A stretch of DNA of 64,000 bases from Spirochaetota bacterium. GTDB taxonomy: Bacteria; Spirochaetota; UBA4802; UBA5550. Below, in pieces: positions 2,216 to 20,275 of the stretch (position 1 is its first letter; each line of letters opens with the position of its first letter). The notes beneath the pieces were generated by a model. The model saw nothing but the letters and a program-made list of their open reading frames with translations. It was not told where the DNA came from and made no database searches. Both the position numbers and the translations under genes were made by a program. Location: assembly GCA_016928865.1 (NCBI GenBank), contig JAFGJX010000070.1:12139-76138 (forward strand). The letters run 5' to 3'.

Positions 2216-3442
2216 GTGCACGATATGAAAAAAAAGGTCGTCGTAACCGGAATTAATATTATATCCTCCCTCGGATTGAATATGGAGGAGAACTGGATCA
2301 ATCTTAAGGCCGGGAAAAGCGGTGTCAGGACAATTGACCTGTTCGATCCTTCGGATTGCGAAACACGCATAGCAGCTCAGGTCCCTTCCGGATTCGATGC
2401 GTACGCGTCACGTTTAATTAAGAAGCGCCTGTCAGGCCAGATGACCAGGGTTACACGCATGGCATACGTATGCGCTGTTGAGGCGATTGATAGATCGCGT
2501 TGTCTGGATTTTTCACGGAATGATCGCAGCCGGTGCGCTGTCATCATAGGGGCAGTGTCAGCGGGAAATTCAAGTGTTGAAACCGGAACGACAGAAAAAA
2601 ATCGTATAATTAAAAACATGAGCAATGCAATTCCGGCATGGATATCGCTCCGCTACGGATTGGAAGGACCCAATTTCACGGTAAATACGGCGTGCGCCTC
2701 ATCATCATACGCCGTAACGATTGGATACGAGATGATCCGGAACGGCACCGCTGATCTCGTGATCACCGGCGGCGTCGATTCGACGATAAATCCCGAAGAG
2801 ATCAAAGGCTTCAACGAGCTCTATGCACTGAGTGTTAGAAATCATGAGCCGGAACGGGCGAGCAGGCCGTTTACCCGTGACCGTGACGGCTTTGTTATCG
2901 GCGAAGGAGCGGGAATTATTATTCTTGAATCCGAGAAGACAGCGCGGGCGAGGGGAGCCGCCATCCTTGCTGAAGTCGCCGGTTATGCCATCACCAGCGA
3001 GGCGTATAATATCATGGCGCCCAAAAAGGATGGAGAGGGGATGGCGGTCACCATGAGGCAGGCGCTCGAAAAATCGGGAATTGCCCCGGAGCGCGTGGAT
3101 TACATCAATGCTCACGGGACCGGGACCCCGCTGAATGACCTGTATGAGACCATGGCCATCAAGAGTGTTTTTGGCGCCGGCGCACCCTCCATACCGGTTT
3201 CTTCGTCGAAATCGATGATCGGGCACACCATCGCGGCGGCAGGCGCCATTGAAGCCGCTATCACCGTCATGAGCATCAGGGAACAGGTTATCACCCCGAC
3301 GGTGAACCAGGATCTCCCTGACCCGTGCCTTGACCTGGATTTCGTGCCTAATTATTCGAGACCCCACAAAATAAATGTTGCAATATCGAATTCTTTTGCT
3401 TTTGGTGGACACAATGCATGCATCGTATTTAAAAAATATTGA
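2216..3442 (+). CDS. fabF: Beta-ketoacyl-ACP synthase II (FabF-like)
   Basis: VVVTG, TACASS (Cys), INAHGTGT, KSMIGH, SNSFAFGGHN; start GTG 2216 or ATG 2225. Confidence 0.92.
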   Translation: MHDMKKKVVVTGINIISSLGLNMEENWINLKAGKSGVRTIDLFDPSDCETRIAAQVPSGFDAYASRLIKKRLSGQMTRVTRMAYVCAVEAIDRSRCLDFSRNDRSRCAVIIGAVSAGNSSVETGTTEKNRIIKNMSNAIPAWISLRYGLEGPNFTVNTACASSSYAVTIGYEMIRNGTADLVITGGVDSTINPEEIKGFNELYALSVRNHEPERASRPFTRDRDGFVIGEGAGIIILESEKTARARGAAILAEVAGYAITSEAYNIMAPKKDGEGMAVTMRQALEKSGIAPERVDYINAHGTGTPLNDLYETMAIKSVFGAGAPSIPVSSSKSMIGHTIAAAGAIEAAITVMSIREQVITPTVNQDLPDPCLDLDFVPNYSRPHKINVAISNSFAFGGHNACIVFKKY

Positions 3443-3506
3443 CAGGGCCGCGGTGTCCGGTATGAACGTTTCCGGACGATTACCGTACTAATGCAGGGAG
3501 CGTGTT

Positions 3507-3812
3507 ATGGCGAAAATTGAGAGCGGCACCAGAGAAGAGGTGCGCAGGCTGGTTTACGAATTTTTTTCAGAGGAGTGCGAGGTGCCCGTCGATCAGCTGA
3601 ATGACGGGACCAATGTGATCAGGGACCTGGAAGGGGACTCGCTCATGTTTCTCGAGCTCCTCGAAGTTTTCAAGAAAAAATACGGACTGAATGTAGAGCT
3701 TAAGACCGTGGGAAAATATGTCGTGAAGCACCCGGCGGAAACAATTGGCGCTATCATCGCCATGACAATGCTTATTATCGAGCACGAGAACAGGATAGCG
3801 GAGCTCGACTGA
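3507..3812 (+). CDS. Acyl carrier protein (atypical)
   Basis: DLEGDSLMFLE phosphopantetheine Ser motif, acidic, GGGAG RBS. Confidence 0.85.
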   Translation: MAKIESGTREEVRRLVYEFFSEECEVPVDQLNDGTNVIRDLEGDSLMFLELLEVFKKKYGLNVELKTVGKYVVKHPAETIGAIIAMTMLIIEHENRIAELD

Positions 3813-3831
3813 CCGGGACCGGGGGCTTATT

Positions 3832-4791
3832 TTGGAAAGAAAAAAAACAGCGGCGATTTTTCCTGCTTTCGGATGCAGATACCTTGGCTCAGAAAAAGAG
3901 ATTCTGAATTCGATGTCGGGCGACCTTCGAGAATTGCTGTCGCGCGCCGAGGCGGCCGTTGACTTCGACAGGGTTGAGTTCGAGCGGCGGGATAGTGGAG
4001 ATTTTGAGGACGAGTTGCAGTCCCAGTACGCGGCCTACATAATAAGCTGCGCACTGTCAAATATCCTGAAACGAAGCGGTATACGCATCGATTACGCGGC
4101 CGGCTACAGCATGGGACTGTATGCGGCGCTGTTTCATGCCGAATCCGTTGCGTTCGAGCAGGGACTCGACCTGATAACTGTCGCATATGAAATGATACGC
4201 AGTGCGGCAACCGGCATCGATTTCGGCACCGGAGTAATCTCCGGACTCGACAATGGCGACATCCGTTCGATAGTGTCCCGGCGAAAAGACCTGGAGATAA
4301 TTAATGTCAACAATCGGCACAGCTTCCTCATCGCCGGTTTTTCTTCATCTGTGACCCGGGCGCTGAAGACCGCGAAAAAAATGGGCGCGCTCAATACAAA
4401 ATTCCTGGACCTCAAACTGCCGTATCACTCCACTGCAATGCGGGATGTTTCGCGGGAGTTTTACGGCTATTGTTCCGGCATGCGTATATATGATCCGTCA
4501 TGCTGCATTATTTCCACCGTGGATGCCCGTGAGATAACCTCATGGGAGGATGTCCTCGGCGATCTTGCCGACAATATCTATCGCAATATCAACTGGCTCG
4601 CGGCGATGGAGCGTATGGTTTCAGCCGGGGTGGATGCCTTTGTCGAATGCGGGCCCGGGAAAAGCCTCTACCGAATTTCTCAGTTCATCGAAGGCGGCTT
4701 TTCCGTGTACCATCTCGCCATGCTTCAGGATCTCCTCGCTTCGGACCGGGTCTGCAGCCACGAGGACGCCCTGGACCTGCGGCGCGCATGA
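3832..4791 (+). CDS. FabD-like ACP acyltransferase (non-canonical)
   Basis: IFPAFG, GYSMG nucleophile, PYHS, FVECGPG; TTG start. Confidence 0.85.
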   Translation: MERKKTAAIFPAFGCRYLGSEKEILNSMSGDLRELLSRAEAAVDFDRVEFERRDSGDFEDELQSQYAAYIISCALSNILKRSGIRIDYAAGYSMGLYAALFHAESVAFEQGLDLITVAYEMIRSAATGIDFGTGVISGLDNGDIRSIVSRRKDLEIINVNNRHSFLIAGFSSSVTRALKTAKKMGALNTKFLDLKLPYHSTAMRDVSREFYGYCSGMRIYDPSCCIISTVDAREITSWEDVLGDLADNIYRNINWLAAMERMVSAGVDAFVECGPGKSLYRISQFIEGGFSVYHLAMLQDLLASDRVCSHEDALDLRRA

Positions 4792-6128: not shown

Positions 6129-6137
6129 GGCATCCGG

Positions 6138-7265
6138 TCAAGCGTGATAGCGCATGGCGTACCCGGCCTGCATGAATTTGCTCACCTCCGTGACGAAGCT
6201 CAGGATGAGGTCTTTGTCGTTCAGTGTTTCTTCCCTGAGAATCGTATCAAGGCAGATAAGGGCCATGGGAGGGCCGGGATAGCCGGTAGAAGACATTTTC
6301 GTATAGACCGTTTCAGCCGGGATCCCGAGAGCCAGGCACTCCTCTAGAACCAGATCGGCAATGTGTTTCGACGGGAGGTTAACCTGGAAAAACCTGAGTC
6401 CGGACAGATCGATTGCCTCCGTGTCGATCATTCGTTTCAGTCCCTTGAAGAAAACCGTTCCGTCAGGATCATGAAAGTGCGTCCTGAGCTGCTCCTGGAA
6501 CATCTGCGCCAGATGGTGATAGCCCTTCTCAAACTCATCGCGGGGGTTCATCCAGTAAGCGGGACGACGGTTGTACATGGGCGACGGCTTTTTTCCCCCG
6601 ACGGATTCCATGTAGGCATGCTCGAGGAAAAGACCGGCTTCAGGCGCGTCTCGTCCCTCAAGCAGGAGCGCGCCGGCGCCGTCGCAGAGGAACCAACGGA
6701 GGAACACGTCCTCCTTTTTTATAAGGGGCTGGTTGTAATACTCGGCGCGGAGCTCCGAAGAGGAGACGCTCGAAGAGAGTACGAGGGCGTTCCGGTATCT
6801 TCCATTACGTATGAGATCGCCGGCCAGAAGGAGGGCCTTGTACGCCGAGGTGCAGTTCGCGTGTATGGAAAGCTCGGCGCACCGTTCGATGCCAAGCGCC
6901 TCCTGAATTCGTACGGTAGGTGTCGGCATCTGGTCCATGTGTGCGCTACCGTACACGATAAGCTCGATATCGCCTGCGTCCATCCCCGCAGATTCAAGAG
7001 CCAGCCGCGCCGCGTGTACAGCCATGGTGACGTTGTCATCGATGAACTCCCGGGTAAGCGGATCTATCGCATAGTGGTAATGGGTGATATCGAGCATCTC
7101 CTTCATGAGCGGCTTGATGCGGCGCATCCATTTCATGACCGGAGCGGGCGCGTCAGTTATTTCGCCCAGGTAGCGGTCTATATCGTCAAAGGATACAGGC
7201 GCGCCCGGCAGGTACGTGCCGGAGCCGGTTACCCGTATATGGCGTTTATCCTTCATCTGTCTCAT
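6138..7265 (-). CDS. FabH/DarB(StlD)-like thiolase-fold enzyme, catalytic His/Asn replaced
   Basis: GSGTYLPG, HYAID, ANCTS (Cys), LRWFLCDGAGA (DarB-like). Confidence 0.8.
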   Translation of the reverse strand: MRQMKDKRHIRVTGSGTYLPGAPVSFDDIDRYLGEITDAPAPVMKWMRRIKPLMKEMLDITHYHYAIDPLTREFIDDNVTMAVHAARLALESAGMDAGDIELIVYGSAHMDQMPTPTVRIQEALGIERCAELSIHANCTSAYKALLLAGDLIRNGRYRNALVLSSSVSSSELRAEYYNQPLIKKEDVFLRWFLCDGAGALLLEGRDAPEAGLFLEHAYMESVGGKKPSPMYNRRPAYWMNPRDEFEKGYHHLAQMFQEQLRTHFHDPDGTVFFKGLKRMIDTEAIDLSGLRFFQVNLPSKHIADLVLEECLALGIPAETVYTKMSSTGYPGPPMALICLDTILREETLNDKDLILSFVTEVSKFMQAGYAMRYHA

Positions 7266-7895
7266 GCCTCCCGGAAGACTGTATGCCGGCAGAACCGGCG
7301 GTGATGCGTTCTATCATCTCAACTGCCCCGGCTATGACGTGTTTTCTGGGCGTCACAACATCAACGAGGTTCCATGCGAGCGCCTCTTCAGCGGTGAAGG
7401 TGGCACCAGAAAGCACTAGCTCCAGCGTGCGCGCCCTGCCGGCGAGCGAAAGCATCCTGGTTATGCCGCCGCAGCCAGGCATCAGCCCGAAGGTCGACTC
7501 AGGCAGTCCGAGCACCGATCCCGCGCCGCACACGCGCGCGTGGCAGGCAAGGGCAAGCTCGAAAGCGGATCCGAGGCAGACCCCCTGAATCGCGGCTACC
7601 ACGGGTACGCCGCAGTTTTCGAAAAAACCGAATGCCGAAAGATTGTTGCGCAGAAGGGCCGGAGCCCGGGCACCGCGATCGGAAACAGCGTTCCTGAGAT
7701 CATCGAGGTCCGCGCCCGAGGAGAAATGCCTGCCCGCGCCGCGGATAACGATGCCTCTCACGCCGGAAGCGGATATCACTCCGTCAGTGAGGCGCTTCAG
7801 TTCAGAAAAAAAAAGCGGTCCATGCTGTTGGCAGGCGGGTCGTTAAGGACAAGGTGCCCTATTGAACCGCGCACAATGTAGCTCGGGTTATTCAT
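7246..7895 (-). CDS. Enoyl-CoA hydratase/isomerase, frameshifted at a 9-T tract (7806-7814)
   Basis: N-terminal MNNPSYIVRGSIGHLVLNDPPANSMDRFFF in one frame; SELKRL...FSSGADL...GSAFELALAC...GLPE in the -1 frame. Confidence 0.8.
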
Positions 7896-8622
7896 CCGCT
7901 GCTGCCGCCAGTCTGCAAAACATTATCGTCTCCTCTTCAATGGCTTCGTGCGGTGACATGACGCGCGCGTTGTTGATGGCCCGGACTATCGAATTAATGG
8001 CGGTAAGCGGCCTGTCAGCAACCATTTTTTTTATAAGTGATACGGAAAAATCGACGGCCGCGCGGGCCGGAACAAGATGGTCCACAAGCTTCAGCTCCAG
8101 CGCGCGTGAGGCGTCGATGATATCGCCGGAGAGGAGGATCTGCAGCGCCGTGCTCCGGCCCAACGCGGCCGCAATGCGTGACGCTCCGCCAAGGCCGGGT
8201 ACGAGCCCGTGGTTTATTTCCGGGAACGCGAATATGGCGTTTTCGCAGCAGACCCGGATATGACAGGCGAGGGCAATCTCGAGGCCGGCTCCGAAGCAGG
8301 CGCCGCGTATGGCGGCTATAACGGGAAGCTCGATCGCATCAAGATGTCCAAGAATGCGCAATCCCTTTTCCATCTCTGACAGGAGAGACGACTCACTGGC
8401 AGCCAGATCCCTGATGCGGGAGAGATCGCCGCCTGCTGAAAAATGGCGCCCCGCGCCGGTGATGATTATTCCGCGGAGGGACGATTCTGACGTCCATTCG
8501 CGGAGACGGTCGATTTCGACGAAAGCGGGATCGGTTATGTAATTCTGGGGCGGATTGTCGAGGGTCAGGATCCCGATGCCGTCATCGACCTCCCATGTCG
8601 TCATAATTGATCGCTCCATCAT
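7888..8622 (-). CDS. Enoyl-CoA hydratase/isomerase
   Basis: LDNPPQN, FSAGGDL, GAGLEIALAC, FPEINHG (both Glu present). Confidence 0.9.
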   Translation of the reverse strand: MMERSIMTTWEVDDGIGILTLDNPPQNYITDPAFVEIDRLREWTSESSLRGIIITGAGRHFSAGGDLSRIRDLAASESSLLSEMEKGLRILGHLDAIELPVIAAIRGACFGAGLEIALACHIRVCCENAIFAFPEINHGLVPGLGGASRIAAALGRSTALQILLSGDIIDASRALELKLVDHLVPARAAVDFSVSLIKKMVADRPLTAINSIVRAINNARVMSPHEAIEEETIMFCRLAAAADE

Positions 8623-9023
8623 GCCCCCGGGAAGAAGGCTGGGATGTCGTGGGGAATACGGTCCCGGTCTACGAGGAGCGTTTTAATGCTACCGCGCGCT
8701 ATCAGCTCCCCCGTACGAGCGGTTCTGATGGCATGGCTGAATACCAGGTAGGGCGGATCGCGCGATATATCAGTGCCGCAGACGAGTTCGTCAAAGACTT
8801 TTGCCTCGCGCGAATAACGGATGGACGCTTCGGCAACAACCAGGATAAGCCCATTCTGGGAGAAATAGCCGAAGAGGTCCGCTGACCTGAGGATCTCCCA
8901 TCGGGCCTGCTCAAGGTAGTTGAGATATACCGCGTTGTTTACGTGACCGAAGGAATCGATCTCGTATCCACGCACCATGAACCTGAATTCGTATTGCATG
9001 GGAAGCTTGTCCATGACATACAC
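8619..9023 (-). CDS. Acyl-CoA/ACP thioesterase (4HBT/YbgC hotdog family)
   Basis: EIDSFGHVNNAVYLNYLEQAR motif. Confidence 0.9.
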   Translation of the reverse strand: MYVMDKLPMQYEFRFMVRGYEIDSFGHVNNAVYLNYLEQARWEILRSADLFGYFSQNGLILVVAEASIRYSREAKVFDELVCGTDISRDPPYLVFSHAIRTARTGELIARGSIKTLLVDRDRIPHDIPAFFPGA

Positions 9024-9116
9024 TTTTTCATAAGGATTCAGATCCTGTCAATCAGGATGTGAATCTTTTTTTTATTGCAATATTTTAAAGGCAAAAATGA
9101 TACTGATATCTAAATC

Positions 9117-10307
9117 ATGTCGGAAAAACGACCTTACAGCATTGGCATTATCGGAAGCGGACGCATGGGTCTGGATATTTTCGAGTACCTGTCTGATTTC
9201 ATGTTCCCGCTGACTTTGATATGCATCTCGGATCAGGAACGGCTGGCTGCGCAAAAGTCCATCGCGCGAAGGATGGAACGGCGCCGCCGGAACGGTCTTA
9301 TAGGAGAGGAGCAGTTCGACTTCAGAAAAATGAACTGCGTTATATCCTCATCACTGAAAGATTGCAGCGGGTGCGATATCATTATCGAGGCGATATACGA
9401 GGATGAGGAGGCAAAACGGACGCTGTACCGGAACCTCGAAGCGATCGTGCGGGAAGACGCGGTCATCGTTTCAAACTCTTCATCCATTTCCCCGTCTCGT
9501 ATCGCTGACAGCGGCATCAGCAGGGGTCGCTGTGCAGGACTCCACTTTTTCTTCCCCGTAAGGTACAAGAATGTCGCGGAGCTGATACGCATGGATCATA
9601 CCGATGACGCCGTCATGCGTAGACTCAGGGAATTTCTTGCGGAGATCAACAGGTTTTATCTCGAAATGGGGGAGGATGATGCGTTTATCCTCAATCGCAT
9701 TGTTCTTGACTGCCAGGCTCAGGCATGCCGTTTTTTAACCGAGGACCGCTATACTGCCAGGGAGATTGACCGCATCATGCAACGAAGGCTCTTTACTCAT
9801 GGCATTTTTGAGTTTTTCGACAGCGTGGGCATAGATGTGGCCGCTCGCGCGGTAGACAACTACGCCACCTTGCGCGGGGATATTGAATTCTACCGGCCCC
9901 TGCTGATGTCGCTGAGAAAATTGATGTCGGAAAACAGGCTGGGGAAGAAAACCGGGGCGGGATTCCATGACTATGCCCGGCAGGGAGAGGCGGAGATCGC
10001 CGGCGCGATCAAGGGAGCCGAGCGGGTCGAGCTGGTGCTCACGGCGCTCTATATCAACTCGGCATTCAAGGCATGCGAGCGCGGGAAATGGTCACCGGAG
10101 GACCTGGAATACGCGCTCACAGAATATACGGGTTGCCCTGAGGGACCATTTGCACTCGCGCAGGAAATCGGGACGTCGGAGTTGCGTGATCTGCTTTCAG
10201 AGCATCACATGACGACAGGCTTTGAGGCATTCAGGCCGTCGCGGCTTCTCGATAGGGCAGGCAACGACTCTCAGCATGAAAGGGGTGACGGCGAAGAGGT
10301 TTTATAA
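9117..10307 (+). CDS. 3-hydroxyacyl-CoA dehydrogenase family
   Basis: GIIGSGRMG, IEAIYEDEEAK, SNSSS, GLHFFFP, GKKTGAGF. Confidence 0.88.
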   Translation: MSEKRPYSIGIIGSGRMGLDIFEYLSDFMFPLTLICISDQERLAAQKSIARRMERRRRNGLIGEEQFDFRKMNCVISSSLKDCSGCDIIIEAIYEDEEAKRTLYRNLEAIVREDAVIVSNSSSISPSRIADSGISRGRCAGLHFFFPVRYKNVAELIRMDHTDDAVMRRLREFLAEINRFYLEMGEDDAFILNRIVLDCQAQACRFLTEDRYTAREIDRIMQRRLFTHGIFEFFDSVGIDVAARAVDNYATLRGDIEFYRPLLMSLRKLMSENRLGKKTGAGFHDYARQGEAEIAGAIKGAERVELVLTALYINSAFKACERGKWSPEDLEYALTEYTGCPEGPFALAQEIGTSELRDLLSEHHMTTGFEAFRPSRLLDRAGNDSQHERGDGEEVL

Positions 10308-11736: not shown

Positions 11737-11802
11737 GAACGATATAAAAAGATTTTGACAAAAATACGATGCTTCCGGTATGGTTTAACGAATATGCTTT
11801 GC

Positions 11803-13287: not shown

Positions 13288-13300
13288 TGACCGCGGCCGG

Positions 13301-14800
13301 ATGAAGGGAAGAGTGATCAGGATGGCACGAGTGAGAAATATTATAATACTGCTGGCGGCCTGGTCCGGCCTGTGCGCGTCGTTATCCCCGGCCGCGCACG
13401 CCATGGACGACCGCGTGGTTTATCTGCTCGTCACATCGCAGAAATACGATTACGCCTCGCCCTGGCAGATGGGTGATATCTCGCGTTCGAACGCAACCGG
13501 ATGCGTCATTGACGGCAATATGATACTGACATCCGCGTATGCGATAACCGATCATTCAGGCATTGAAGTGATGAAGAAGGGCGAAAGCCGCAAGTATCAG
13601 GCGGAAGTATATATCAAGGACTATCATTGCGGTCTCGCGCTCCTCAGGGTGAAAGACAGGAGCTTTTTCAAAGGGCTCAAGCCGGTTGAATTCGGACCGT
13701 CCGGCAAAATTCCGGGCAGGGCGGCCGTCGTGTACCGCTGGGACTCGCTCAGCAGCCTGAAGGAATATTCAGCCAACCTGACGAAAGCATCAATCCGTTT
13801 TTACGAACCGGGATGCTCTGCCCTCATGTACCAGTTCTCAACCAGCATGAACGAAGGCGGAAACGGCGAGCCGGTCTTCATCGACGGCAGGCTCGCAGGC
13901 GTCGCGGCGGCGCTCAGCGGCGAATCGAAGACGCTCTACGTTCTGGGGATAGACGTGGTGCTGCGCATGCTGAAAGACGCGGGCGACGGCGACTATCGCG
14001 GCGTTCCATTTTTCTGGATCGACGGGGTGGAGCTCAGGAGCGACGTTAATCTCCGCGACTACTTCGGCGTCGCGGCGGGTGACGGCGGCGTACTCGTTAC
14101 CGGTGTCCCCGCCATAAGCAGCGGGGGAGAATCCCTCAGGATAAACGATATCATACAATCAATCGACGGACATCGCATCGATGACAGCGGCATGTACGAT
14201 TCGCCCTATGGCAAATTGTACTATTACGGCCTGGTTCAGCTCGATCATCAGGTAGGGGATTCGATCTCCATGGTGGTCCTGCGCGACAGGCGGCAGACGA
14301 CCCTGCGGTTCACGCTCAAGCCGGTTCCGGACGAGTGCTGCGCGATTCCGCTTATATCGCACGACCGGGGACCCCGCTACTGCGTTGTCGGCGGCCTGGT
14401 TTTCCAGGAGCTCAGCGCCGGATACCTCGAGCTCTACGGGAGAGACTGGAAGAAGAAAGCTGACAAGCGGCTGGTCTATTATTATGATTCAGTCAAGTCG
14501 CTTGTAGAGAAGGGGCCGGAGGTCAGGGTGGTCGTTCTCACGCGGGTCCTTCCCGACACCGTGAATAAGGGCTACCAGCAGTACCACAGCCTGGTTCTAA
14601 ACAGCGTGAACGGCGTAAGCGTGAAAAACCTTACACAGATGAAAAAACTGGTCGATAGAGCAGCGGGCGATTACCTCGTGTTTTCGTTTGTGGGTGAGAC
14701 AACTGTGGTGCTCGATAAAAATGAGGCATCACGCGGAGAAAGCGAATTGATGCAGAAATACAACGTGACCGCGCCGCATAATATACCAGACGTCAATTAA
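13301..14800 (+). CDS. Deg-like trypsin/PDZ paralog, catalytic triad lost
   Basis: Collinear with upstream protease but LTSAYA, CGLALL, MNEGGNGEP. Confidence 0.82.
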   Translation: MKGRVIRMARVRNIIILLAAWSGLCASLSPAAHAMDDRVVYLLVTSQKYDYASPWQMGDISRSNATGCVIDGNMILTSAYAITDHSGIEVMKKGESRKYQAEVYIKDYHCGLALLRVKDRSFFKGLKPVEFGPSGKIPGRAAVVYRWDSLSSLKEYSANLTKASIRFYEPGCSALMYQFSTSMNEGGNGEPVFIDGRLAGVAAALSGESKTLYVLGIDVVLRMLKDAGDGDYRGVPFFWIDGVELRSDVNLRDYFGVAAGDGGVLVTGVPAISSGGESLRINDIIQSIDGHRIDDSGMYDSPYGKLYYYGLVQLDHQVGDSISMVVLRDRRQTTLRFTLKPVPDECCAIPLISHDRGPRYCVVGGLVFQELSAGYLELYGRDWKKKADKRLVYYYDSVKSLVEKGPEVRVVVLTRVLPDTVNKGYQQYHSLVLNSVNGVSVKNLTQMKKLVDRAAGDYLVFSFVGETTVVLDKNEASRGESELMQKYNVTAPHNIPDVN

Positions 14801-14832
14801 GAGCGGTGGCTAAACGCGCTCTATGCGCGTCA

Positions 14833-14869: not shown

Positions 14870-14948
14870 TCAAACGGTCCTCTGCCGCTCAGTTTATTAT
14901 TCTATGCTTCATTGGCCTAACGGAACAGAGTGTGATTATTAATAGTTT

Positions 14949-15971
14949 ATGGAGTCCATGATGATCGTTCGTACCGTCGTATGTGTATGCCTGATTCTCA
15001 TGCCTGTGGTGCTCGGCGCGCAGGAAAAACGTGAGATGAGATCTGACGTTCTGGCACAGGCAGCGGTCCCGGCGACACGAAATATAAAAGCGCCTGAAGC
15101 CGACGTGATGAAGAATGACGGAGATGCGTCTGCCCGGAAAAAGGAAGGGATCGCCATAATGAAAAAATCGATCCGGTATTCCATTCTCGCGGCCCTTCCC
15201 ATAAACACCTATGTCGTTTCCCTCCTGACGTGGGACTGGGGCAAAACAACGAAATTCAGGGTGGGGCATGAAGGGTGGTTCGGGCATAACACCTATACCG
15301 GCGGCTCGGACAAGGTCGCGCACATGTTCTCATTTTACACGCTGATGAGGATACTCTATAACGTATATGACTACACCGAGGACGGCGCGGACTCGAAATG
15401 GGCCTTTTCGGCAGGCCTTGCCACATTCATGGCGCTCGGCATCGAGATCGGGGACGGGTTCTGCAAAAACCAGAACGGGTTCGGGTATGCCGACCTTACC
15501 ATGGGGCTGATCGGCATAGGGATAGCCTCGCTGCTTGAAGCGTTCCCGGCGGTCGATGCCTTCGTCAGCCTGAGCGCCCAGTACATCCCTACGAAATATT
15601 TCAGGAAGCATCCGCAGCGTCTGAAATGGTTCATGGACGACTACAGCGGATGGCGCTTTATGGCTAACATCAAGCTCGCCGGTTTCCGCTACCTCGGCAT
15701 CAACATCCCGGAATTTCTCCGGTACGTGCAGTTCGATATCGGCTATTACACGACCGGGTATACCACATACGATTATGCCTGGGGCGAGCTCGAACGCACC
15801 TTCAACATAAAGGGTAAGGAGCGGAACGTGTTTATCGGGATATCGGTCAACCTGACGGAATTCATCAAGGACTTCTTTGACGACAAGGAGAGCCTTGCCT
15901 GCAGGGCGCTGCAGCAGCCGTTCAAGTATTACCATGTTCCGCTCGGCGTCGATCATCGATTCAGGCTATAG
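14949..15971 (+). CDS. DUF2279/YfiM-like membrane protein
   Basis: GGSDKVAH, EIGDGF, GFGYADL, DDYSG motifs. Confidence 0.75.
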   Translation: MESMMIVRTVVCVCLILMPVVLGAQEKREMRSDVLAQAAVPATRNIKAPEADVMKNDGDASARKKEGIAIMKKSIRYSILAALPINTYVVSLLTWDWGKTTKFRVGHEGWFGHNTYTGGSDKVAHMFSFYTLMRILYNVYDYTEDGADSKWAFSAGLATFMALGIEIGDGFCKNQNGFGYADLTMGLIGIGIASLLEAFPAVDAFVSLSAQYIPTKYFRKHPQRLKWFMDDYSGWRFMANIKLAGFRYLGINIPEFLRYVQFDIGYYTTGYTTYDYAWGELERTFNIKGKERNVFIGISVNLTEFIKDFFDDKESLACRALQQPFKYYHVPLGVDHRFRL

Positions 15972-15982
15972 GGGGCGTCATT

Positions 15983-16450
15983 ATGAAGGAAAAAGACGTA
16001 CGGGTCGATTACCGGAAGCACCAGGTTGTCCTCTACGCTGAAAAAAGGGACGGATCGTACGGACCGGTGCGGACCGGCTCTTATATCACGAAGAATTATC
16101 TCGATGACTACTGGCTCAAGAGAAACAATCTCGAGCGTGAGTATCTCGAAAAGGTTCGCGGGGGAGAAATAAGTCCCATCGCCTATTACATGGTCCTCGA
16201 GGAGCTGACGCCGTCAGAGCTGGCGTCACGCGTGAAGCTGTCGACCCGGAAAGTGAAGCGACACATGACGCCTGAGCACTTCGGCGAGGCAACGGTGGAG
16301 CAGCTGCGTCGCTACTGCGAGGTATTCAACGTGCCGATTGCAGGCATGTTCCAGGCGGTTGTCACCAGGAAGAAGGGCGTCAGGGTTGAGGAATTGAAAA
16401 CAGATAATCCTTATTTCAGCATATATACCATCGCGACGGAGAAAAAATGA
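15983..16450 (+). CDS. Conserved HTH-like protein of the type found beside BtrH-N genes
   Basis: SPIAYYM...ELASRV...KVKRH...LRRYCEVFNV; ATGA overlap with next gene. Confidence 0.65.
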   Translation: MKEKDVRVDYRKHQVVLYAEKRDGSYGPVRTGSYITKNYLDDYWLKRNNLEREYLEKVRGGEISPIAYYMVLEELTPSELASRVKLSTRKVKRHMTPEHFGEATVEQLRRYCEVFNVPIAGMFQAVVTRKKGVRVEELKTDNPYFSIYTIATEKK

Positions 16451-17451
16451 CGTTCAAGCATACCATGGCGGCGCACTGCGAGTCCGGCACGGTCGCCGCT
16501 CTGTTGAAGCACGAGGGAATGGACATCTCCGAGCCGCTTGTGTTCGGCATGTCCGCCGGCATATTCTTCGGCTATTTCGAATCAAGGAAATTCCCTTTCC
16601 CGACATTCGTGGTGAGGAACCGTCCCGGACAGATCAGGACCGGCATGGCGAGCCGCATCGGGGTGAAATTCAGGGAACAGAAGTTCCGTGATCCGGGAGC
16701 GGGGGAAAGGGCTCTTGACGATCTTCTTGCCCGGGAGATCCCTGTCGCGTGCCAGACTGATTTTTTCTACATGAACTACCTGCCCGGCCATGTGCGGGTG
16801 CATATCAATGTCCATTTTATCATCGCGGTTGAAAAGAAAGACGGCGTCTACCTGGTGAGCGACTGCTATTCGCCCGATATCGCTCCGCTCGACAGGGATT
16901 CGATGATGAAGGCCCGCTTCGCCGGGGGCAGCTTCGCGCCGCGCGGCTTCATGTTTTATCCGGTATCGGTGCCGGAGCGAATCGATTACCGGACAGCGAT
17001 ATGGAAGGGAATCCGCAGCGCGGCCTTCAACATGGTCAGGCTGCCCATGCCGTTCCTGGGGGTCAGGGGGATACGGCTCTTTGCGAAAAAAGTCGTTGAC
17101 TGGCCGCGTCTCGCCCGCGACACCGAGCACCTGTCTCACGAAATCATGAAGATAAACATCCTGCTCGAAGACCAGGGCACCGGCGGGGCCGGATTCAGGT
17201 TCATGTACGCGACCTTCCTGCGCGAAGCGGCCGAGCGTCTCAAAGACCCGGATCTCCACGATATGTCGAAGCGTATCATGGAGATAGGAGACAGATGGCG
17301 CGAGATATCCCTTTTTGCCGCCCGCATCGGAAAGCGGCGCGATCTCGGACAGGACCGTCTCAGGGAGCTGAGCTCCCTGATATATGAACGCGCTGACGCG
17401 GAAGAGTCATTTTTCAGGGATCTGCTGGCTATGAGTAAAAAAAAGATATGA
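16447..17451 (+). CDS. BtrH N-terminal / DUF4872 papain-like protein
   Basis: AHCESG, SEPLVFG, HINVH, GTGGAGFRFMYATFL. Confidence 0.85.
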   Translation: MTFKHTMAAHCESGTVAALLKHEGMDISEPLVFGMSAGIFFGYFESRKFPFPTFVVRNRPGQIRTGMASRIGVKFREQKFRDPGAGERALDDLLAREIPVACQTDFFYMNYLPGHVRVHINVHFIIAVEKKDGVYLVSDCYSPDIAPLDRDSMMKARFAGGSFAPRGFMFYPVSVPERIDYRTAIWKGIRSAAFNMVRLPMPFLGVRGIRLFAKKVVDWPRLARDTEHLSHEIMKINILLEDQGTGGAGFRFMYATFLREAAERLKDPDLHDMSKRIMEIGDRWREISLFAARIGKRRDLGQDRLRELSSLIYERADAEESFFRDLLAMSKKKI

Positions 17452-17466
17452 AGACATGGTGAGGCT

Positions 17467-17745
17467 ATGACGGCAAACATTCCAGATGCGTTAAAAAACG
17501 AGATCAAGCTCCTGATCATTGACGCGCTCAATATCGATGATGTGGGCCCGGAAGAGGTGGGGGATGATGATGCCCTGTTCGGCGACGGGAACGTGCTCGG
17601 ACTGGATTCGATTGATGCGCTTGAGATTGTCATGGCGCTCCAGGAGAAATACGGAGTGCGGATCGACGACAAGAACCAGGCGCGTTTCATTCTCAAATCA
17701 ATAACCACGATCGCAGAATATATCGAGGCAAACAGGACGAGATAA
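17467..17745 (+). CDS. Acyl carrier protein
   Basis: LGLDSIDALE motif, GAGG RBS. Confidence 0.92.
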   Translation: MTANIPDALKNEIKLLIIDALNIDDVGPEEVGDDDALFGDGNVLGLDSIDALEIVMALQEKYGVRIDDKNQARFILKSITTIAEYIEANRTR

Positions 17746-17780
17746 GCCGGAAGGCAAATGCGTGTATCGGCCTTCTTCGG

Positions 17781-19151
17781 TCATGCGCCGGTATAGAATT
17801 CGTCCTTTGACACGTCAATGGCCCCGCGCAGTTTCGACTGGAGCACGAGTGAGAATATTGTCCTGTGTATCCGTTCGTTGGGAAATCTGGGCAGGTGATA
17901 GAGGGTTCGCCTTACGATTTCCCTGAAGGAATATCCCCGATCGCCTATTCGCTTGAGCGCATCGAATATATCCGCGTCTCTGATGGTCGGGTGCACAAAA
18001 TTAACCAGCTTGCTGTCGTCAAGTTTTCCCTCCCGCTCCAGGCGTTCGTACAGCCGCGTCCCGGGGAGCGCCTTTATGGGAAATATAACCGGGATGATGC
18101 TCGTTTCCCGGCAGAATTCAAGGGTGCGGAAATAGGTGTCGATATCGTCATCCTCGTAGCCGATAACGAACCATCCCGATACAAGTATGCCCTGGTCCTG
18201 TATGAACCGGATATGCTCCTTCATGACGGCGATCACGTCGCCTCCCTTCCGGGCGCCCATTTTGTTAATGGCTCCGGATCCGGCAAGGGTCTTCGGGTTG
18301 ACCGACTCCATGCCGATCGCCGCGTATATGAGACCGGCCTCCGCCGCTTTTTTTATGACAGCCCTCCCTTTTTGATCTGCCGCAGCATCGAGATTGGCCT
18401 GTCCCGTCCAGAAGCGCCTTTTCTTCAGATTTGAGATCGCCCCGTACAGATCGAGGTAGTAGTCATAGGACGCCTTCTTCCCGAACACGGAGTCATCGAG
18501 CAGGTAATAGTAATTACTGAACGAATTGATCTCAGCAACGACGTCCGAAACGGACCTGGTCCTGAAGCCGGGGCCAAACAGCTCCGTCACAGTGCAGAAA
18601 TCGCAGTTGATCGGACAGCCGCGCACTGCATAGACCGTGTCAAAAACATATTTTTTCCTGTAGGGGCGCCTCAACGGCAGCGGCACGTGATTCAGGTCGG
18701 GATAGCGGTTGATCTGGTGAAGGGTACGTCCCCGCGGATCAAAGGGCTTCGGCGAGCAAACGTAAAAGTCTTTCAGTGAATTATGCTCTGCATCGCGGAC
18801 AATTACAGGCCAGAGCTCCTCCGCCTCTCCAATCGCCACCGCATCAGCGTGCATGATCGCGCGAAAGGGCACCACTGACGGCTGGGGCCCACCCATGACG
18901 ACAGTGACGCCCCGCCTGCGGAACTGATCCGCGATCTCGTATGCTCTGTTTTCCGCGGTATAGCGCACGCTTATCCCCACGAGGTCCACGGGCTCGTCGA
19001 AGCGTTCATCGTCCTCCCAGAGGAGGTCGATGAACTGGTAGTCGTGCCCGGGAGCGCTTCCAGCCAGGATCGGCAAAGAGAGCGGCATGAACGGGTCATT
19101 CTTGCGAAGCGGGTCACGAAGGGAAGCCGCGAGTATCAGTTTTATTCTCAT
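17781..19151 (-). CDS. B12-binding radical SAM protein
   Basis: MPLSL, MGGPQ, GEAE, RGCPINCDFC, GMES, LPGT. Confidence 0.88.
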   Translation of the reverse strand: MRIKLILAASLRDPLRKNDPFMPLSLPILAGSAPGHDYQFIDLLWEDDERFDEPVDLVGISVRYTAENRAYEIADQFRRRGVTVVMGGPQPSVVPFRAIMHADAVAIGEAEELWPVIVRDAEHNSLKDFYVCSPKPFDPRGRTLHQINRYPDLNHVPLPLRRPYRKKYVFDTVYAVRGCPINCDFCTVTELFGPGFRTRSVSDVVAEINSFSNYYYLLDDSVFGKKASYDYYLDLYGAISNLKKRRFWTGQANLDAAADQKGRAVIKKAAEAGLIYAAIGMESVNPKTLAGSGAINKMGARKGGDVIAVMKEHIRFIQDQGILVSGWFVIGYEDDDIDTYFRTLEFCRETSIIPVIFPIKALPGTRLYERLEREGKLDDSKLVNFVHPTIRDADIFDALKRIGDRGYSFREIVRRTLYHLPRFPNERIHRTIFSLVLQSKLRGAIDVSKDEFYTGA

Positions 19152-19225
19152 GGTGTCATAGTACGGGTTACCGGGTGTTTACCGCAATAATTATATCATT
19201 TGCAGCTGTTGCAATCCATCAATAT

Positions 19226-20275
19226 TCACGGCTTGGTGGCCGTAATGATGCCAAGACCAGGGGAATGATTGATGGCGTGGTAGCGCGTGCGGCTGAATCC
19301 GGACTGATCCAGAAAGTCGGCTATCTCGGCATGTGTGTATATCCTTCCTTCAGTCGAGTTGAATAGTTCAAGGAGGACAAAGTAGGCGTTGGCCTTCATG
19401 AACCGGGAAGGGGATGCCTTTCCGATATGATCCATGATGACAAGCAGACCGCCGTGATTGAGTGAGCGGCATATCTTGACGAGGATTGTTTTTAAAATGA
19501 CCGGATCAAATATACGGATGGTATTGAACATGAGAATGATATCCTGGCCGTCAGGAAGCTCGTCTTTCAGAAAATCTCCTGCCATAAACGATATCCGTCC
19601 AGAAAGTCCGGTTGACAATATGTTCTCCATGGCAATTCGTGAGGCCGAAGGCCAGTCATACACCACGCCGGTTAACCGCGGATAGCGTTTGCAAAATTCG
19701 ATTGAGTACTGGCCATGGCTGCCGCCCAGGTCAAGGAGGTGTTCTGCGGTCCGGGGGATTCGAATTCTCTTTAGGATTTCCGGCGATAACATCATGGCCG
19801 CGCTTTTAAGACCTGCATGGTACGCGTCCCATCTCTTCTGGTCCTGATCGAGCCATTCGTAGCCAAGACGAGGCGGTCGTCCGTGTCGCATGGATTCGTC
19901 CAGATATTCCCAGCGGGCCGATATGTCGTTGAATTGATCGAACATGGCCGAAATATTTGATGGAGAATCGTGCAGGAGCCAATTCTGCGTCATGAACGTA
20001 TTTCTGATTTTATTTCGCCTGATGCGCACGTATCCAAGGCTTTCAAGGGCGCCTATAAGAAGACCGAGGCCGGCGCGGTCAGTCCCGGTTGCCGAGGTGA
20101 TCTGATCGATAGTTTTTGCATCGCGGCCTATTGCGTCGAACAAGCCGAGCCGGAGGGCCGTCATGACCGCTTTGAAAGCCAGCACGCCCATGAGGTCTGC
20201 CATCGGACCGGGTCCCTTCCCCAGGCGCAGGAGGGCTATGCGCTCAAACAGGTTTAGCTGAACCGGCATTCGCAC
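19226..20275 (-). CDS. SAM-dependent O-methyltransferase (dimerisation + Methyltransf_2)
   Basis: LRLGLFD winged helix, LLDLGGSHG, AGDF. Confidence 0.88.
   Translation of the reverse strand: MRMPVQLNLFERIALLRLGKGPGPMADLMGVLAFKAVMTALRLGLFDAIGRDAKTIDQITSATGTDRAGLGLLIGALESLGYVRIRRNKIRNTFMTQNWLLHDSPSNISAMFDQFNDISARWEYLDESMRHGRPPRLGYEWLDQDQKRWDAYHAGLKSAAMMLSPEILKRIRIPRTAEHLLDLGGSHGQYSIEFCKRYPRLTGVVYDWPSASRIAMENILSTGLSGRISFMAGDFLKDELPDGQDIILMFNTIRIFDPVILKTILVKICRSLNHGGLLVIMDHIGKASPSRFMKANAYFVLLELFNSTEGRIYTHAEIADFLDQSGFSRTRYHAINHSPGLGIITATKP

What the first reader, a model, noticed from the sequence alone, without database searches (positions are those of the whole stretch)
2216..20275. Candidate undescribed radical-SAM-rich lipid/polyketide pathway
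Seen: FabF, two dissimilar ACPs, a FabD-like AT, a DarB/FabH-like enzyme, two crotonases, a thioesterase, a 3-hydroxyacyl-CoA dehydrogenase, three different B12-binding radical SAM enzymes, a BtrH-N protein with its HTH-like partner, and an O-methyltransferase within 18 kb. Many genes have overlapping stop/start codons. Not seen: FabG, FabZ/FabA, FabI, a chain-length factor or DarA. Known: DarB-like, BtrH-N and ACP genes occur in flexirubin/dialkylresorcinol clusters, and B12-rSAMs with fab genes occur in ladderane-associated islands. Inference: this hybrid makes a methylated, cyclised or cross-linked acyl product different from either class. Several core enzymes carry specificity-changing substitutions (see separate findings).
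Basis: partly seen in the sequence, partly recalled or inferred. Interest (0 to 1): 0.85.

Follow-up and report, generated by a model that had tools for sequence, protein, structure and literature searches.

The report
Conserved radical-SAM lipid gene cluster
This is a real gene cluster, shared by uncultured anaerobic bacteria of several phyla, that probably builds an unknown two-chain lipid or pigment using three vitamin-B12 radical enzymes, and one of its genes needs a conserved reading-frame slip to be made whole.

Summary
Window 2216-20275 encodes FabF, two ACPs, a FabD-like AT, a StlD/DarB-fold ketosynthase, two crotonases, a 4HBT thioesterase, a 3-hydroxyacyl-CoA dehydrogenase, three B12-radical-SAM enzymes, DarG/DarH-like proteins and an O-methyltransferase.

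The set is not a chance neighbourhood. All 18 genes are syntenic in 10 Spirochaetota MAGs. An 11-gene core recurs, in shuffled order, in Bacteroidales, Fibrobacterota and Myxococcota: 25 of 37 full-flank loci carry it.

The ketosynthase keeps its Cys but lacks the His and Asn of the triad. The AT lacks the malonyl-binding Arg. Both changes are conserved.

No paper I found describes the product. The nearest known systems are flexirubin/dialkylresorcinol clusters and the unexplained antiSMASH "ladderane" clusters of non-anammox bacteria.

My best guess is an oxygen-independent, DarB-like two-chain condensation followed by B12-rSAM tailoring.

FabG-like, dehydratase and KS-CLF genes lie on other contigs of the genome.

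Unexpectedly, the second crotonase is split at a T9 run. The same split occurs in all 11 relatives of the clade, which suggests programmed slippage.

The parts
2216..3442 (+). FabF-type beta-ketoacyl-ACP synthase II, with Cys/His/His motifs present
   Evidence: PF00109 and PF02801; NF005589 scores 428.5 bits (cut-off 387); TIGR03150 scores 437.4 (below its cut-off of 493.75). Motifs are visible. Orthologs of 60-80% identity occur in 42 of 80 loci.
3507..3812 (+). ACP1, 101 aa, with the DSL serine motif
   Evidence: PP-binding, 28.6 bits. It is conserved next to FabF in 48 of 80 loci.
3832..4791 (+). FabD-like acyltransferase that lacks the malonyl-binding residues
   Evidence: fabD 131 bits (cut-off 260.9). 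The alignment to S. aureus FabD shows GHSLG replaced by GYSMG, FPGQG replaced by FPAFG, and the Arg117 position occupied by Ala. These changes are conserved in all 15 sequences aligned. A true FabD lies on contig C80.
4788..6128 (+). B12-binding radical SAM enzyme 1, most like HpnR and BchE
   Evidence: The ATGA overlap with the AT stop codon is shown. Orthologs of at least 40% identity occur in 54 of 80 loci.
6138..7256 (-). StlD/DarB-fold KS-III-like enzyme. The Cys is kept; the His and Asn of the triad are replaced by Phe and Tyr.
   Evidence: NF005293 109.4 bits (cut-off 450); DarB 72.8 bits (cut-off 550). StlD is the best PDB sequence hit. AF2 model with pLDDT 83; best fold match is StlD (TM 0.80, E 7e-30). 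IHANCTSAY, FQVN and GYPGPPM are conserved in 15 of 15 sequences.
7246..7895 (-). Crotonase ECH2 in two frames. A 30-codon N-terminal ORF (7895-7797) joins a body in the -1 frame at a T9 run (7806-7814).
   Evidence: The same split is found in 11 of 11 clade relatives; 29 of 29 other loci have a single frame. Both crotonase Glu residues are present.
7888..8622 (-). Crotonase ECH1, with both catalytic Glu motifs
   Evidence: ECH_1, 128.7 bits.
8619..9023 (-). 4HBT/YbgC-like hotdog thioesterase
   Evidence: 4HBT_2, 65 bits.
9117..10307 (+). 3-hydroxyacyl-CoA dehydrogenase (NAD-binding domain plus two C-terminal domains)
   Evidence: 3HCDH_N, 126.6 bits.
10315..11736 (+). B12-binding radical SAM enzyme 2. 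Its closest curated family is the 'lipid biosynthesis B12/rSAM' family of ladderane-type clusters.
   Evidence: TIGR04072, 309.9 bits (cut-off 360); the best PDB match is TsrM (128 bits); 1842 relatives; relatives in 251 genomes.
11755..13287 (+). HtrA-like serine protease 1, with intact motifs
   Evidence: GNSGG and LTNAHVV are present in 11 of 11 sequences.
13301..14800 (+). HtrA-like paralog 2, probably inactive (His replaced by Tyr, Ser motif degenerate)
14949..15971 (+). DUF2279 predicted periplasmic lipoprotein
   Evidence: It is syntenic in 11 loci.
15983..16450 (+). DarG-family-like protein with an XRE-like helical core
   Evidence: NF053536, 60.3 bits (cut-off 70)..
16447..17451 (+). 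BtrH-related acyltransferase DarH (BtrH_N plus DUF4872)
   Evidence: NF053550, 313.5 bits (cut-off 300).
17467..17745 (+). ACP2, of the PRK09184 type
   Evidence: NF006617, 74.7 bits (cut-off 70).
17781..19151 (-). B12-binding radical SAM enzyme 3, with a DUF4070 tail
   Evidence: Orthologs of 68-82% identity occur in 9 of 10 syntenic Spirochaetota loci (L001-L010).
19226..20275 (-). Family-2 (COMT-type) O-methyltransferase with a dimerisation domain
   Evidence: Methyltransf_2, 79.8 bits; FlxJ only 46.7 bits (cut-off 560).
20350..21198 (-). MBL-fold hydrolase. It is syntenic with the cluster in 9 loci, but whether it belongs to the cluster is uncertain.

Best explanation
This is a dedicated, horizontally shared biosynthetic gene cluster of anaerobes. 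It probably makes a specialised lipid or pigment of the envelope.

Shown:
- The genes are real.
- They travel together across phyla.
- Their catalytic motifs are as described in the evidence below.

Inferred pathway:
1. FabF extends an acyl primer on ACP1 to a 3-ketoacyl thioester.
2. The dehydrogenase, run in the reductive direction, and a crotonase convert part of that pool to 2-enoyl thioester. The cluster has no enoyl reductase.
3. The StlD-fold ketosynthase, acylated on its conserved Cys, joins a 3-keto chain and a 2-enoyl chain as DarB/StlD do. This would give a carboxy-cyclohexanedione-type head. Given its lost His and Asn, it may instead give another head-to-head product.
4. The hotdog thioesterase releases the product.
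5. The Arg-less AT moves a non-malonyl acyl group onto or off ACP1.
6. The three B12-rSAM enzymes do the oxygen-free tailoring. This could be C-methylation at sp2 or unactivated carbons, and perhaps the dehydrogenation that DarA performs in aerobes.
7. In the Spirochaetota version, DarH transfers an ACP2-bound acyl chain onto the head group. That chain is possibly the aryl-polyene made by the genes on contigs C94 and C109. The O-methyltransferase then caps a hydroxyl.
8. The HtrA pair and the DUF2279 lipoprotein act in the periplasm.

Separately, ECH2 is expressed only after a slip at its T9 run. This would set the amount of the second crotonase.
For: Co-localisation:
- All 18 genes are in the same order in 10 Spirochaetota MAGs, L001-L010.
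- rSAM1, FabF and the KS lie within 10 kb of rSAM2 in 25 of 37 loci that have both flanks. The gene order is shuffled between phyla.

The ketosynthase:
- It is extremely conserved: at least 65% identity over the 120 clusters listed, across phyla.
- Its best fold match is StlD, with TM 0.80 against about 0.70 for FabH.

Chemistry:
[quoted passage not shown] FabF plus the dehydrogenase plus a crotonase without a reductase would supply exactly these.
- Both crotonases keep both Glu residues.

DAR/flexirubin-type parts:
- DarH (313.5 bits, cut-off 300) and the PRK09184 ACP (74.7 bits, cut-off 70) pass NCBIfam cut-offs.
- A BtrH-like protein, a hypothetical protein and an ACP sit beside darAB in Azoarcus (table read in PMC3949708).

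rSAM2:
- Its nearest characterised relatives, TsrM and BzaD, are methylases. That they act on aromatic carbon is my recollection.

Context:
- The COMT-type OMT implies a phenolic or enolic OH.
- Relatives outside the phylum add GT2-DUF2062, an MMPL-acyltransferase-methyltransferase fusion, LolA and an ApeI-like dehydratase, which are aryl-polyene/flexirubin accessory genes.
- The window's own genome has a KS-CLF fusion, an ApeP-like dehydratase, a FlxB-like KR (312.6 bits, cut-off 340), LolA and a TAL/HAL-type lyase on contigs C109 and C94.
Against: - The KS fails both DarB-family cut-offs: 109.4 bits against 450, and 72.8 against 550.
- It lacks the His and Asn that StlD and FabH have. StlD His302 was important enough for an H302A mutant structure to be solved (title listed). 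It may therefore be an acyltransferase or catalyse a different condensation.
- No DarA was identified, and I had no DarA model to search with.
- The dehydrogenase, crotonases and thioesterase are CoA-type families and could simply degrade rather than build.
- The AT cannot be assumed to load malonate.
- rSAM2 is below the TIGR04072 cut-off, and no B12-rSAM of this clade has a known reaction.
- A role for proteases in a lipid pathway is unexplained.
- The link to contigs C94 and C109 rests only on their being in the same genome.
- No product, no expression data and no cultured carrier were identified.
Confidence: 0.45

Rival explanations
1. A ladderane-island-like fatty-acid modification pathway. 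FabF, ACP1 and the B12-rSAMs act as in the anammox and Desulfotalea clusters. They would make methyl-branched, cyclised or polyunsaturated acyl chains for membrane lipids. The Cys-only KS-III-like protein would be an acyltransferase, not a condensing enzyme.
For: - rSAM2 scores 309.9 bits on TIGR04072, far above any other family.
- rSAM1 and rSAM2 sit directly beside AT-ACP1-FabF in Bacteroidales.
- 21 relatives' loci carry a phytoene-desaturase-like amine oxidase. The anammox cluster has one too (figure legend read in PMC10139942; passages in PMC2649909).
- antiSMASH 'ladderane' clusters are reported in Fibrobacterota, Myxococcota and other non-anammox phyla without explanation (passages read in the 10.1101/2022.12.20.521206 preprint).
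- The KS lacks His and Asn.
Against: - The window has no amxFabZ-like dehydratase, no second FabF and no PDH-like gene.
- rSAM2 is below the family cut-off.
- The KS fold is closest to StlD.
- DarH, the DarG-like protein, the PRK09184 ACP and the OMT all point to DAR/flexirubin-type chemistry.
Confidence: 0.27
2. A beta-branching cassette. The KS-III-like enzyme and the two crotonases would act like the HMG-synthase/ECH1/ECH2 set of polyketide pathways. They would put a methyl branch on an ACP1-bound 3-keto chain.
For: - The gene triplet KS-III-like, ECH, ECH is contiguous and conserved.
- There are weak HMG-CoA synthase hits of 31-32 bits.
- A dedicated ACP and KS are present.
Against: - The best sequence and fold matches are to StlD, not HMGS.
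- The position of the HMGS catalytic Glu (placement recalled, not tested) reads SAH.
- Both crotonases keep both Glu residues, so neither looks like a decarboxylase-type ECH2.
Confidence: 0.06
3. Not one pathway. Several unrelated operons (a fab-like one, a beta-oxidation one, an HtrA stress one and a DAR-like one) merely lie side by side in this lineage.
For: - The HtrA and DUF2279 genes occur only in the Spirochaetota version.
- The DarG/DarH/ACP2 module occurs with rSAM2 but without FabF or the KS in a Rokuibacteriota locus and a Kiritimatiellia locus. The modules are therefore separable.
Against: - The core modules recur together in four phyla in different orders: 25 of 37 full-flank loci.
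- Spacing within the operons is tight or overlapping.
- The KS is found in 9 of 10 other genomes of the genus but in only 19 of 301 genomes of the phylum (G000 among the 19). It behaves like a single accessory trait.
Confidence: 0.07

Closest known systems
Dialkylresorcinol / flexirubin clusters (darAB with a BtrH-like protein, a small partner protein and an ACP; Flx genes)
   Same: - A StlD/DarB-fold ketosynthase.
- DarH above its NCBIfam cut-off.
- A DarG-like partner protein.
- A PRK09184-type ACP.
- A COMT-type methyltransferase.
- Polyene-type KS-CLF, dehydratase, KR, LolA and ammonia-lyase genes in the same genome.
- Aryl-polyene-type accessory genes around the core in Bacteroidales relatives.
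   Different: - The KS fails the DarB/StlD model cut-offs and lacks the His and Asn.
- No DarA was found.
- It has three B12-radical-SAM enzymes, CoA-type dehydrogenase and crotonases, an Arg-less AT and HtrA proteases. I recall none of these from flexirubin clusters.
- The carriers are anaerobe MAGs.
Ladderane-associated fatty-acid gene clusters of anammox bacteria, and the antiSMASH 'ladderane' clusters of other phyla
   Same: - A B12-rSAM of the TIGR04072 neighbourhood lies next to a FabF homolog and a dedicated ACP.
- Relatives carry a phytoene-desaturase-like gene.
- The product and the rSAM reaction are unknown in both.
   Different: - rSAM2 is below the family cut-off.
- The window has no amxFabZ, no FabF pair and no PDH-like gene.
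- It has a StlD-fold KS and a DarH module.
- No carrier among the 80 loci kept is labelled Planctomycetota.
DarA-less DarB homologs of cyanobacteria (orphan clusters discussed in PMC6836626)
   Same: - A DarB-like KS without an adjacent aromatase.
- The authors likewise suspect a product other than carboxy-cyclohexanediones.
   Different: - Different phyla and a different gene context.
- No rSAM enzymes are mentioned in the passages I read.
Shigella mxiE and Thermus dnaX transcriptional slippage sites (for the ECH2 split)
   Same: - A run of nine T (or A) lies in the coding strand.
- Two overlapping ORFs are fused by one extra non-templated base. The mxiE case is as described in PMC1088944.
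   Different: - The gene here is a biosynthetic crotonase.
- No RNA evidence is available.
- Ribosomal -1 slippage on U UUU UUU would give the same protein.

Membership tests
DarB/StlD ketosynthase family | Score above the curated family cut-offs (NF005293 at 450 bits; NF053539 at 550 bits) | tested here: not met
   The scores are 109.4 and 72.8 bits.
DarB/StlD ketosynthase family | Thiolase fold closest to StlD | tested here: met
   The AF2 model has pLDDT 83. StlD chains take ranks 1-6, with TM 0.78-0.80 and E down to 7e-30. FabH reaches about 0.70.
DarB/StlD ketosynthase family | Cys-His-Asn active site | tested here: not met
   The Cys is kept (IHANCTSAY). The HQAN-type His position reads FQVN and the GNT-type Asn position reads GYP. 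All 15 sequences aligned agree. The placement of His302 rests on offsets from the phmmer alignment, not on a structural superposition.
Dialkylresorcinol/flexirubin gene cluster | DarA aromatase adjacent to DarB | tested here: inconclusive
   Every ORF in 2216-20275 is assigned to another family, so none is left for DarA. However, I had no DarA model. Five guessed NCBIfam accessions turned out to be other families.
Dialkylresorcinol/flexirubin gene cluster | BtrH-related acyltransferase DarH, DarG partner and dedicated ACP | tested here: met
   DarH scores 313.5 bits (cut-off 300). The PRK09184 ACP scores 74.7 (cut-off 70). DarG_fam scores 60.3, below its cut-off of 70.
Ladderane-type lipid cluster (TIGR04072 context) | B12-rSAM above the TIGR04072 cut-off of 360 bits | tested here: not met
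   rSAM2 scores 309.9 bits. rSAM3 scores 59 and rSAM1 scores 25.
Ladderane-type lipid cluster (TIGR04072 context) | amxFabZ-type dehydratase, a FabF/FabF2 pair and a PDH-like oxidase in the cluster | tested here: not met
   There is no FabZ hit and no second KS on contig C100. The amine oxidase is present only in relatives' loci, 21 of them.
Malonyl-CoA:ACP transacylase (FabD) | GHSxG nucleophile elbow, Arg117 and Gln11 for malonate, and a score above the cut-off | tested here: not met
   The score is 131 bits against 260.9. The motif is GYSMG, Arg117 is replaced by Ala and Gln11 by Phe. The Ser and the His201 position are kept. Residue numbers are E. coli FabD numbering from memory.
Cobalamin-dependent (class B) radical SAM enzymes | An N-terminal B12-binding domain plus a radical SAM core with CxxxCxxC | tested here: met
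   PF02310 and PF04055 hit all three proteins. The motifs are. rSAM3's B12-domain score (31.7) is just below the Pfam cut-off of 32.1.
HMG-synthase beta-branching cassette | An HMGS-type Glu-Cys-His enzyme with a dehydratase ECH1 and a decarboxylase ECH2 | tested here: not met
   HMGS models score only 31-32 bits. Both ECHs keep both Glu residues.
Programmed transcriptional slippage / -1 frameshift gene | A conserved slippery homopolymer joining two conserved overlapping frames across divergent homologs | tested here: met
   All 12 clade members carry a T9 (10 members) or T10 (2 members) run with the same frame change. All 29 other loci are in one frame. Variable sites by codon position in the upstream frame are 10, 8 and 23, from 4 sequences.
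Programmed transcriptional slippage / -1 frameshift gene | mRNA with an extra U, or a full-length protein | not testable with these tools
   No RNA holder was listed, and the runs laid were contigs that do not cover the site.

The most novel reading that the evidence does not exclude
The cluster encodes an oxygen-independent route to a dialkyl-cyclohexanedione/resorcinol-type lipid, or to a new carbocyclic lipid. In this route, B12-radical-SAM enzymes replace the DarA aromatase and install C-methyl groups or C-C bonds on ACP-bound intermediates. rSAM2 is the nearest non-anammox sister of the ladderane-cluster B12-rSAM. Solving its reaction here, in clusters carried by Bacteroidales and Spirochaetota, would therefore show what that enzyme class does. 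In addition, the pathway would be tuned by a programmed slip at a T9 run in a biosynthetic crotonase. I have not seen that kind of control described for a natural-product cluster.
Probability: 0.2. Interest if true: 0.82.

Novelty: new variant of a known kind. Interest (0 to 1): 0.63.

Why it matters
- Genome-mining papers keep reporting 'ladderane' and 'resorcinol' clusters in anaerobes that make no ladderanes, and nobody knows what they do.
- This window gives a well-delimited example that is conserved across phyla. It has a clear 11-gene core, testable enzyme hypotheses (a Cys-only StlD-fold KS and an Arg-less AT) and three B12-rSAM enzymes of unknown reaction.
- One of those rSAMs is the closest relative of the enzyme suspected in ladderane formation, which has not been obtainable from anammox bacteria.
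- If carriers can be cultured or the core expressed, the work could reveal a new anaerobic lipid class and new radical chemistry.
- The conserved T9 split in ECH2 is a candidate case of programmed recoding in a metabolic gene. It also warns against annotating such genes as pseudogenes.

Tried and rejected
- Sequencing-error reading of the ECH2 split: rejected. The same split occurs in 11 relatives from different assemblies and studies. The upstream frame is conserved and the 0-frame stop lies nearby.
- Downstream stimulatory RNA structure at the slip site: none. The consensus energy is -1.37 kcal/mol and only 1 of 13 pairs is compensatory.
- Expression and read-level check: no RNA holder was listed. 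The four runs laid were contigs with only short, mostly unlike pieces, and none covers the T9 site. This is no evidence either way. One other study's metagenome held four short pieces identical to the window.
- Protein Atlas look-up of the KS: it returned only generic 'KAS III family' clusters.
- DarA search: five guessed NCBIfam accessions were other families. Two of them usefully showed a FlxB-like reductase and a TAL/HAL-like lyase elsewhere in the genome.
- GC-island idea: dropped. The cluster's GC of 0.535-0.576 is close to the genome mean of 0.54.
- Housekeeping-FAS reading of FabF/ACP1/AT: rejected. A better FabD and other KS genes lie elsewhere, and orthologs travel with the cluster in Bacteroidales.
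- Literature: eight searches found no description of this gene set. TIGR04072 is named in no held paper. Supplementary tables were closed. Table S7 of PMC3949708, which lists genomes including one spirochaete, could bear on the distribution claim.
- The StlD structure paper is not held, so the role of His302 rests on the PDB entry title alone.
- I did not use complex prediction, the search of protein representatives or the third homolog search.

Full report
**What is there**

Six-frame ORF listing and Pfam/NCBIfam scans give a gap-free gene map for window 2216-20275.

On the plus strand:
- FabF (2216-3442)
- ACP1 (3507-3812)
- a FabD-like acyltransferase (3832-4791)
- B12-radical-SAM 1 (true start ATG 4788, overlapping the AT stop as ATGA)

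On the minus strand:
- a 4HBT thioesterase (8619-9023)
- crotonase ECH1 (7888-8622)
- crotonase ECH2 (7246-7895)
- a KS-III-like enzyme (6138-7256)

On the plus strand again, with gaps of 150 bases or less (two of 7 junctions lie a few bases apart or overlap):
- 3-hydroxyacyl-CoA dehydrogenase (9117-10307)
- B12-rSAM 2 (about 10315-11736)
- two HtrA-like proteins (11755-13287 and 13301-14800)
- a DUF2279 lipoprotein (14949-15971)
- a DarG-like protein (15983-16450)
- DarH (16447-17451)
- ACP2 (17467-17745)

Convergent to these:
- B12-rSAM 3 (17781-19151)
- a COMT-type O-methyltransferase (19226-20275)

It omits the two proteases and the lipoprotein, and it treats ECH2 as an ordinary gene.

**Is it a unit?**

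I aligned 16 relatives of rSAM2 and scanned one genome per species. Of 259 pattern matches, 251 encode a relative. The 80 best loci were kept, each with up to 10 kb of flank on either side.

I ran tblastn with 22 window proteins against these loci:
- The whole array is in the same order in ten Spirochaetota or 'Leptospirales' MAGs (L001-L010).
- An 11-gene core recurs in Bacteroidales, Prolixibacteraceae and Draconibacterium-labelled MAGs, Fibrobacterota and Myxococcota. The core is FabF, ACP1, AT, rSAM1, rSAM2, the dehydrogenase, a third rSAM, the KS, ECH2, ECH1 and the thioesterase.
- In those phyla the modules are rearranged.

Among the 37 loci that have both 10-kb flanks, counting hits of at least 40% identity:
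- rSAM1 is present in 29.
- FabF is present in 28.
- The KS is present in 28.
- All three are present in 25.

The DarG/DarH/ACP2 module also sits next to rSAM2 in a Rokuibacteriota locus and a Kiritimatiellia locus that lack FabF. The modules are therefore separable but recurrently associated.

Within the window's own phylum, the KS was found in 19 of 301 sampled genomes. That includes 9 of 10 other genomes of the genus and 11 of 21 of the family. This is the patchy pattern of an accessory, transferable trait.

**Enzyme details**

- *FabF.* It has the Cys, His, His and Lys motifs.
- *AT.* Aligned to a solved FabD, it has GYSMG in place of GHSLG and FPAFG in place of FPGQG. It has Ala where the malonate-binding Arg sits. 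All 15 sequences aligned share this. A canonical FabD (301 bits) lies on contig C80. The AT therefore probably handles a non-carboxylated acyl group.
- *KS.* It scores far below the DarB/StlD cut-offs, yet StlD is its best PDB sequence hit. StlD is also the best structural match of a confident AlphaFold model (pLDDT 83; TM 0.80 against about 0.70 for FabH). The nucleophilic Cys is invariant. The His and Asn positions of the triad read Phe and Tyr in all 15 sequences. An invariant HH pair elsewhere might substitute. The family is remarkably conserved, at 65% identity or more across the 120 best clusters, and is annotated only generically.
- *Crotonases.* Both retain both catalytic Glu motifs.
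- *rSAMs.* The three share only 21-25% identity.
  - rSAM2 scores 309.9 bits on TIGR04072, the 'lipid biosynthesis B12/rSAM' model (cut-off 360). Next come BzaD and the Trp C2-methylase TsrM.
  - rSAM1 is nearest HpnR and BchE.
  - rSAM3 has no close family.
- *HtrA pair.* HtrA1 has intact protease motifs in 11 of 11 sequences. HtrA2 has Tyr at the His position and a degenerate Ser motif.
- *DarG-like protein.* It has a helical core resembling XRE-type HTH domains, but all fold matches have E > 0.01.

**Wider context**

I clustered all ORFs of the 80 loci and scanned the recurrent families that are absent from the window. The non-spirochaete versions add:
- a GT2-DUF2062 glycosyltransferase (33 loci)
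- a haem-binding-domain protein (28 loci)
- an MMPL-acyltransferase-methyltransferase fusion (26 loci)
- a phytoene-desaturase-like amine oxidase (21 loci)
- an ApeI/FabA-like dehydratase (21 loci)
- an AAT-type acyltransferase (18 loci)
- LolA (10 loci)

Glycosyltransferase, LolA, acyltransferase and exporter are the genes that PMC3949708 describes as shared by xanthomonadin and flexirubin clusters (passage read). The desaturase-like gene recalls the anammox cluster.

In the window's own genome (131 contigs, 90% complete):
- No FabZ or FabH passes its cut-off.
- The 15.8-kb contig C109 starts with a KS-CLF fusion. It continues with an ApeP-like dehydratase, a FlxB-like reductase (312.6 bits, cut-off 340), LolA, a fourth B12-rSAM and a methyltransferase.
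- Contig C94 ends with a TAL/HAL-type ammonia-lyase, a GT2 and an LpxL-like acyltransferase.

The organism therefore seems to carry an aryl-polyene-type pathway in pieces. The window may supply the partner moiety.

**Mechanism**

DarB and StlD join a beta-keto thioester and an alpha,beta-unsaturated acyl thioester into a carboxy-cyclohexanedione. DarA then aromatises it (PMC6836626, passages read).

A cluster with a KS II, an ACP, a 3-hydroxyacyl dehydrogenase and crotonases, but no enoyl reductase, would deliver exactly those two substrates. This is my main reason for the DarB-like reading.

The missing His and Asn and the failed model cut-offs are the main reasons to doubt it. The same review notes that DarA-less DarB homologs may make other products.

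I assign the B12-rSAM enzymes to anaerobic tailoring. That assignment is inference from family resemblance only.

The ladderane-island-like reading is the chief rival. The beta-branching and chance-neighbour readings are unlikely, for the reasons given under the rival explanations.

**The ECH2 split**

On the minus strand, ECH2 starts at ATG 7895, overlapping the end of ECH1. It runs 27 codons to a T9 run (7814-7806). In that frame it stops two codons later (7799-7797). The rest of the crotonase continues in the -1 frame down to 7246.

The same arrangement is present in all 11 relatives of the clade that carry the gene:
- The upstream peptide is conserved.
- The run is T9 in 9 of the relatives and T10 in 2.
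- A 0-frame stop follows shortly after the run.
- The relatives come from different assemblers and studies, and their ECH2 identity to the window is only 47-68%.

All 29 loci outside the clade encode the same N-terminus in a single frame.

Variable sites in the upstream frame fall 10, 8 and 23 by codon position (4 equal-length sequences), as expected for coding sequence.

One extra U in the mRNA, or a -1 ribosomal slip on U UUU UUU, would restore a crotonase of about 222 residues.

No conserved downstream structure exists. That fits slippage by RNA polymerase on a nine-T run, as described for mxiE and for 9A/9T runs in general (PMC1088944, passages read).

In this genome, A/T runs drop from 669 (length 8) to 97 (length 9) to 5 (length 10), with none longer.

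I could not test RNA.

**Novelty and verdict**

My searches found no paper on this gene set. The published record holds only unexplained 'ladderane' cluster calls in non-anammox phyla and reviews stating that the ladderane rSAM reaction is unknown.

The cluster is a new variant within the aryl-polyene/flexirubin/DAR and ladderane-island superfamily. It is not a new kind of system.

It is a good experimental target. The recoding site is an additional, separate point of interest.

Noticed in passing
window 7797-7895 (minus strand), T run at 7806-7814; also L001-L010 and L012: The crotonase ECH2 is split at a T9/T10 run into a 30-codon N-terminal ORF and a body in the -1 frame. All 12 members of the Spirochaetota clade share the split, while 29 of 29 loci in other lineages have a single frame. 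This is a candidate for programmed transcriptional slippage or -1 frameshifting in a biosynthetic gene.
   Followed up: partly
window 11755-14800: Two HtrA-like genes sit inside the biosynthetic operon. The first has intact protease motifs. The second has Tyr at the catalytic His position and a degenerate Ser motif, so it is probably inactive. The pair is conserved in all 10 syntenic relatives.
   Followed up: partly
own genome, contig C109 1-10501 (L097) and contig C94 27900-33500 (L117): Aryl-polyene/flexirubin-type genes lie on other contigs. These are a KS-CLF fusion, an ApeP-like dehydratase, a FlxB-like reductase, LolA, a fourth B12-rSAM, a methyltransferase, a TAL/HAL-type ammonia-lyase, a GT2 and an LpxL-like acyltransferase. 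C109 begins and C94 ends within these genes, so the two contigs may be adjacent.
   Followed up: partly
whole genome G000: No FabZ or FabH hit passes its NCBIfam cut-off (best scores 43.7 and 133.2 bits) in a genome that is 90% complete, although a true FabD and several KS genes exist. The organism may lack a standard type II fatty-acid synthase.
   Followed up: no
window 20350-21198: An MBL-fold hydrolase matches the Apyc1 (anti-Pycsar) Pfam model at 139.7 bits. It is syntenic with the cluster end in 9 Spirochaetota loci. It could be a cluster thioesterase or hydrolase, or it could be unrelated.
   Followed up: no
whole genome G000: Counts of A/T homopolymer runs fall sharply at length 9: 1706, 669, 97 and 5 for lengths 7 to 10, with none longer. 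The other 101 runs of length 9 or more were not checked for frame changes.
   Followed up: no
L016 (Rokuibacteriota), L056 (Kiritimatiellia), L052 and L072 (Myxococcota): rSAM2 relatives occur in other module combinations. DarG-DarH-ACP2-rSAM2(-rSAM1) occurs without FabF or the KS. rSAM3-like and rSAM2 occur as an adjacent pair. The B12-rSAMs therefore appear to be the constant element.
   Followed up: no
window 6244-9589: Four short contigs (151-167 bases) from another study's metagenome, labelled hot springs, match this stretch without any difference. A near-identical strain may therefore occur elsewhere.
   Followed up: no
window 24265-27893: Downstream of the cluster lie a MORN-repeat protein and an MrfA/Hrq1-type DEAD-box helicase with an MZB zinc domain. 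They appear unrelated to the cluster.
   Followed up: no
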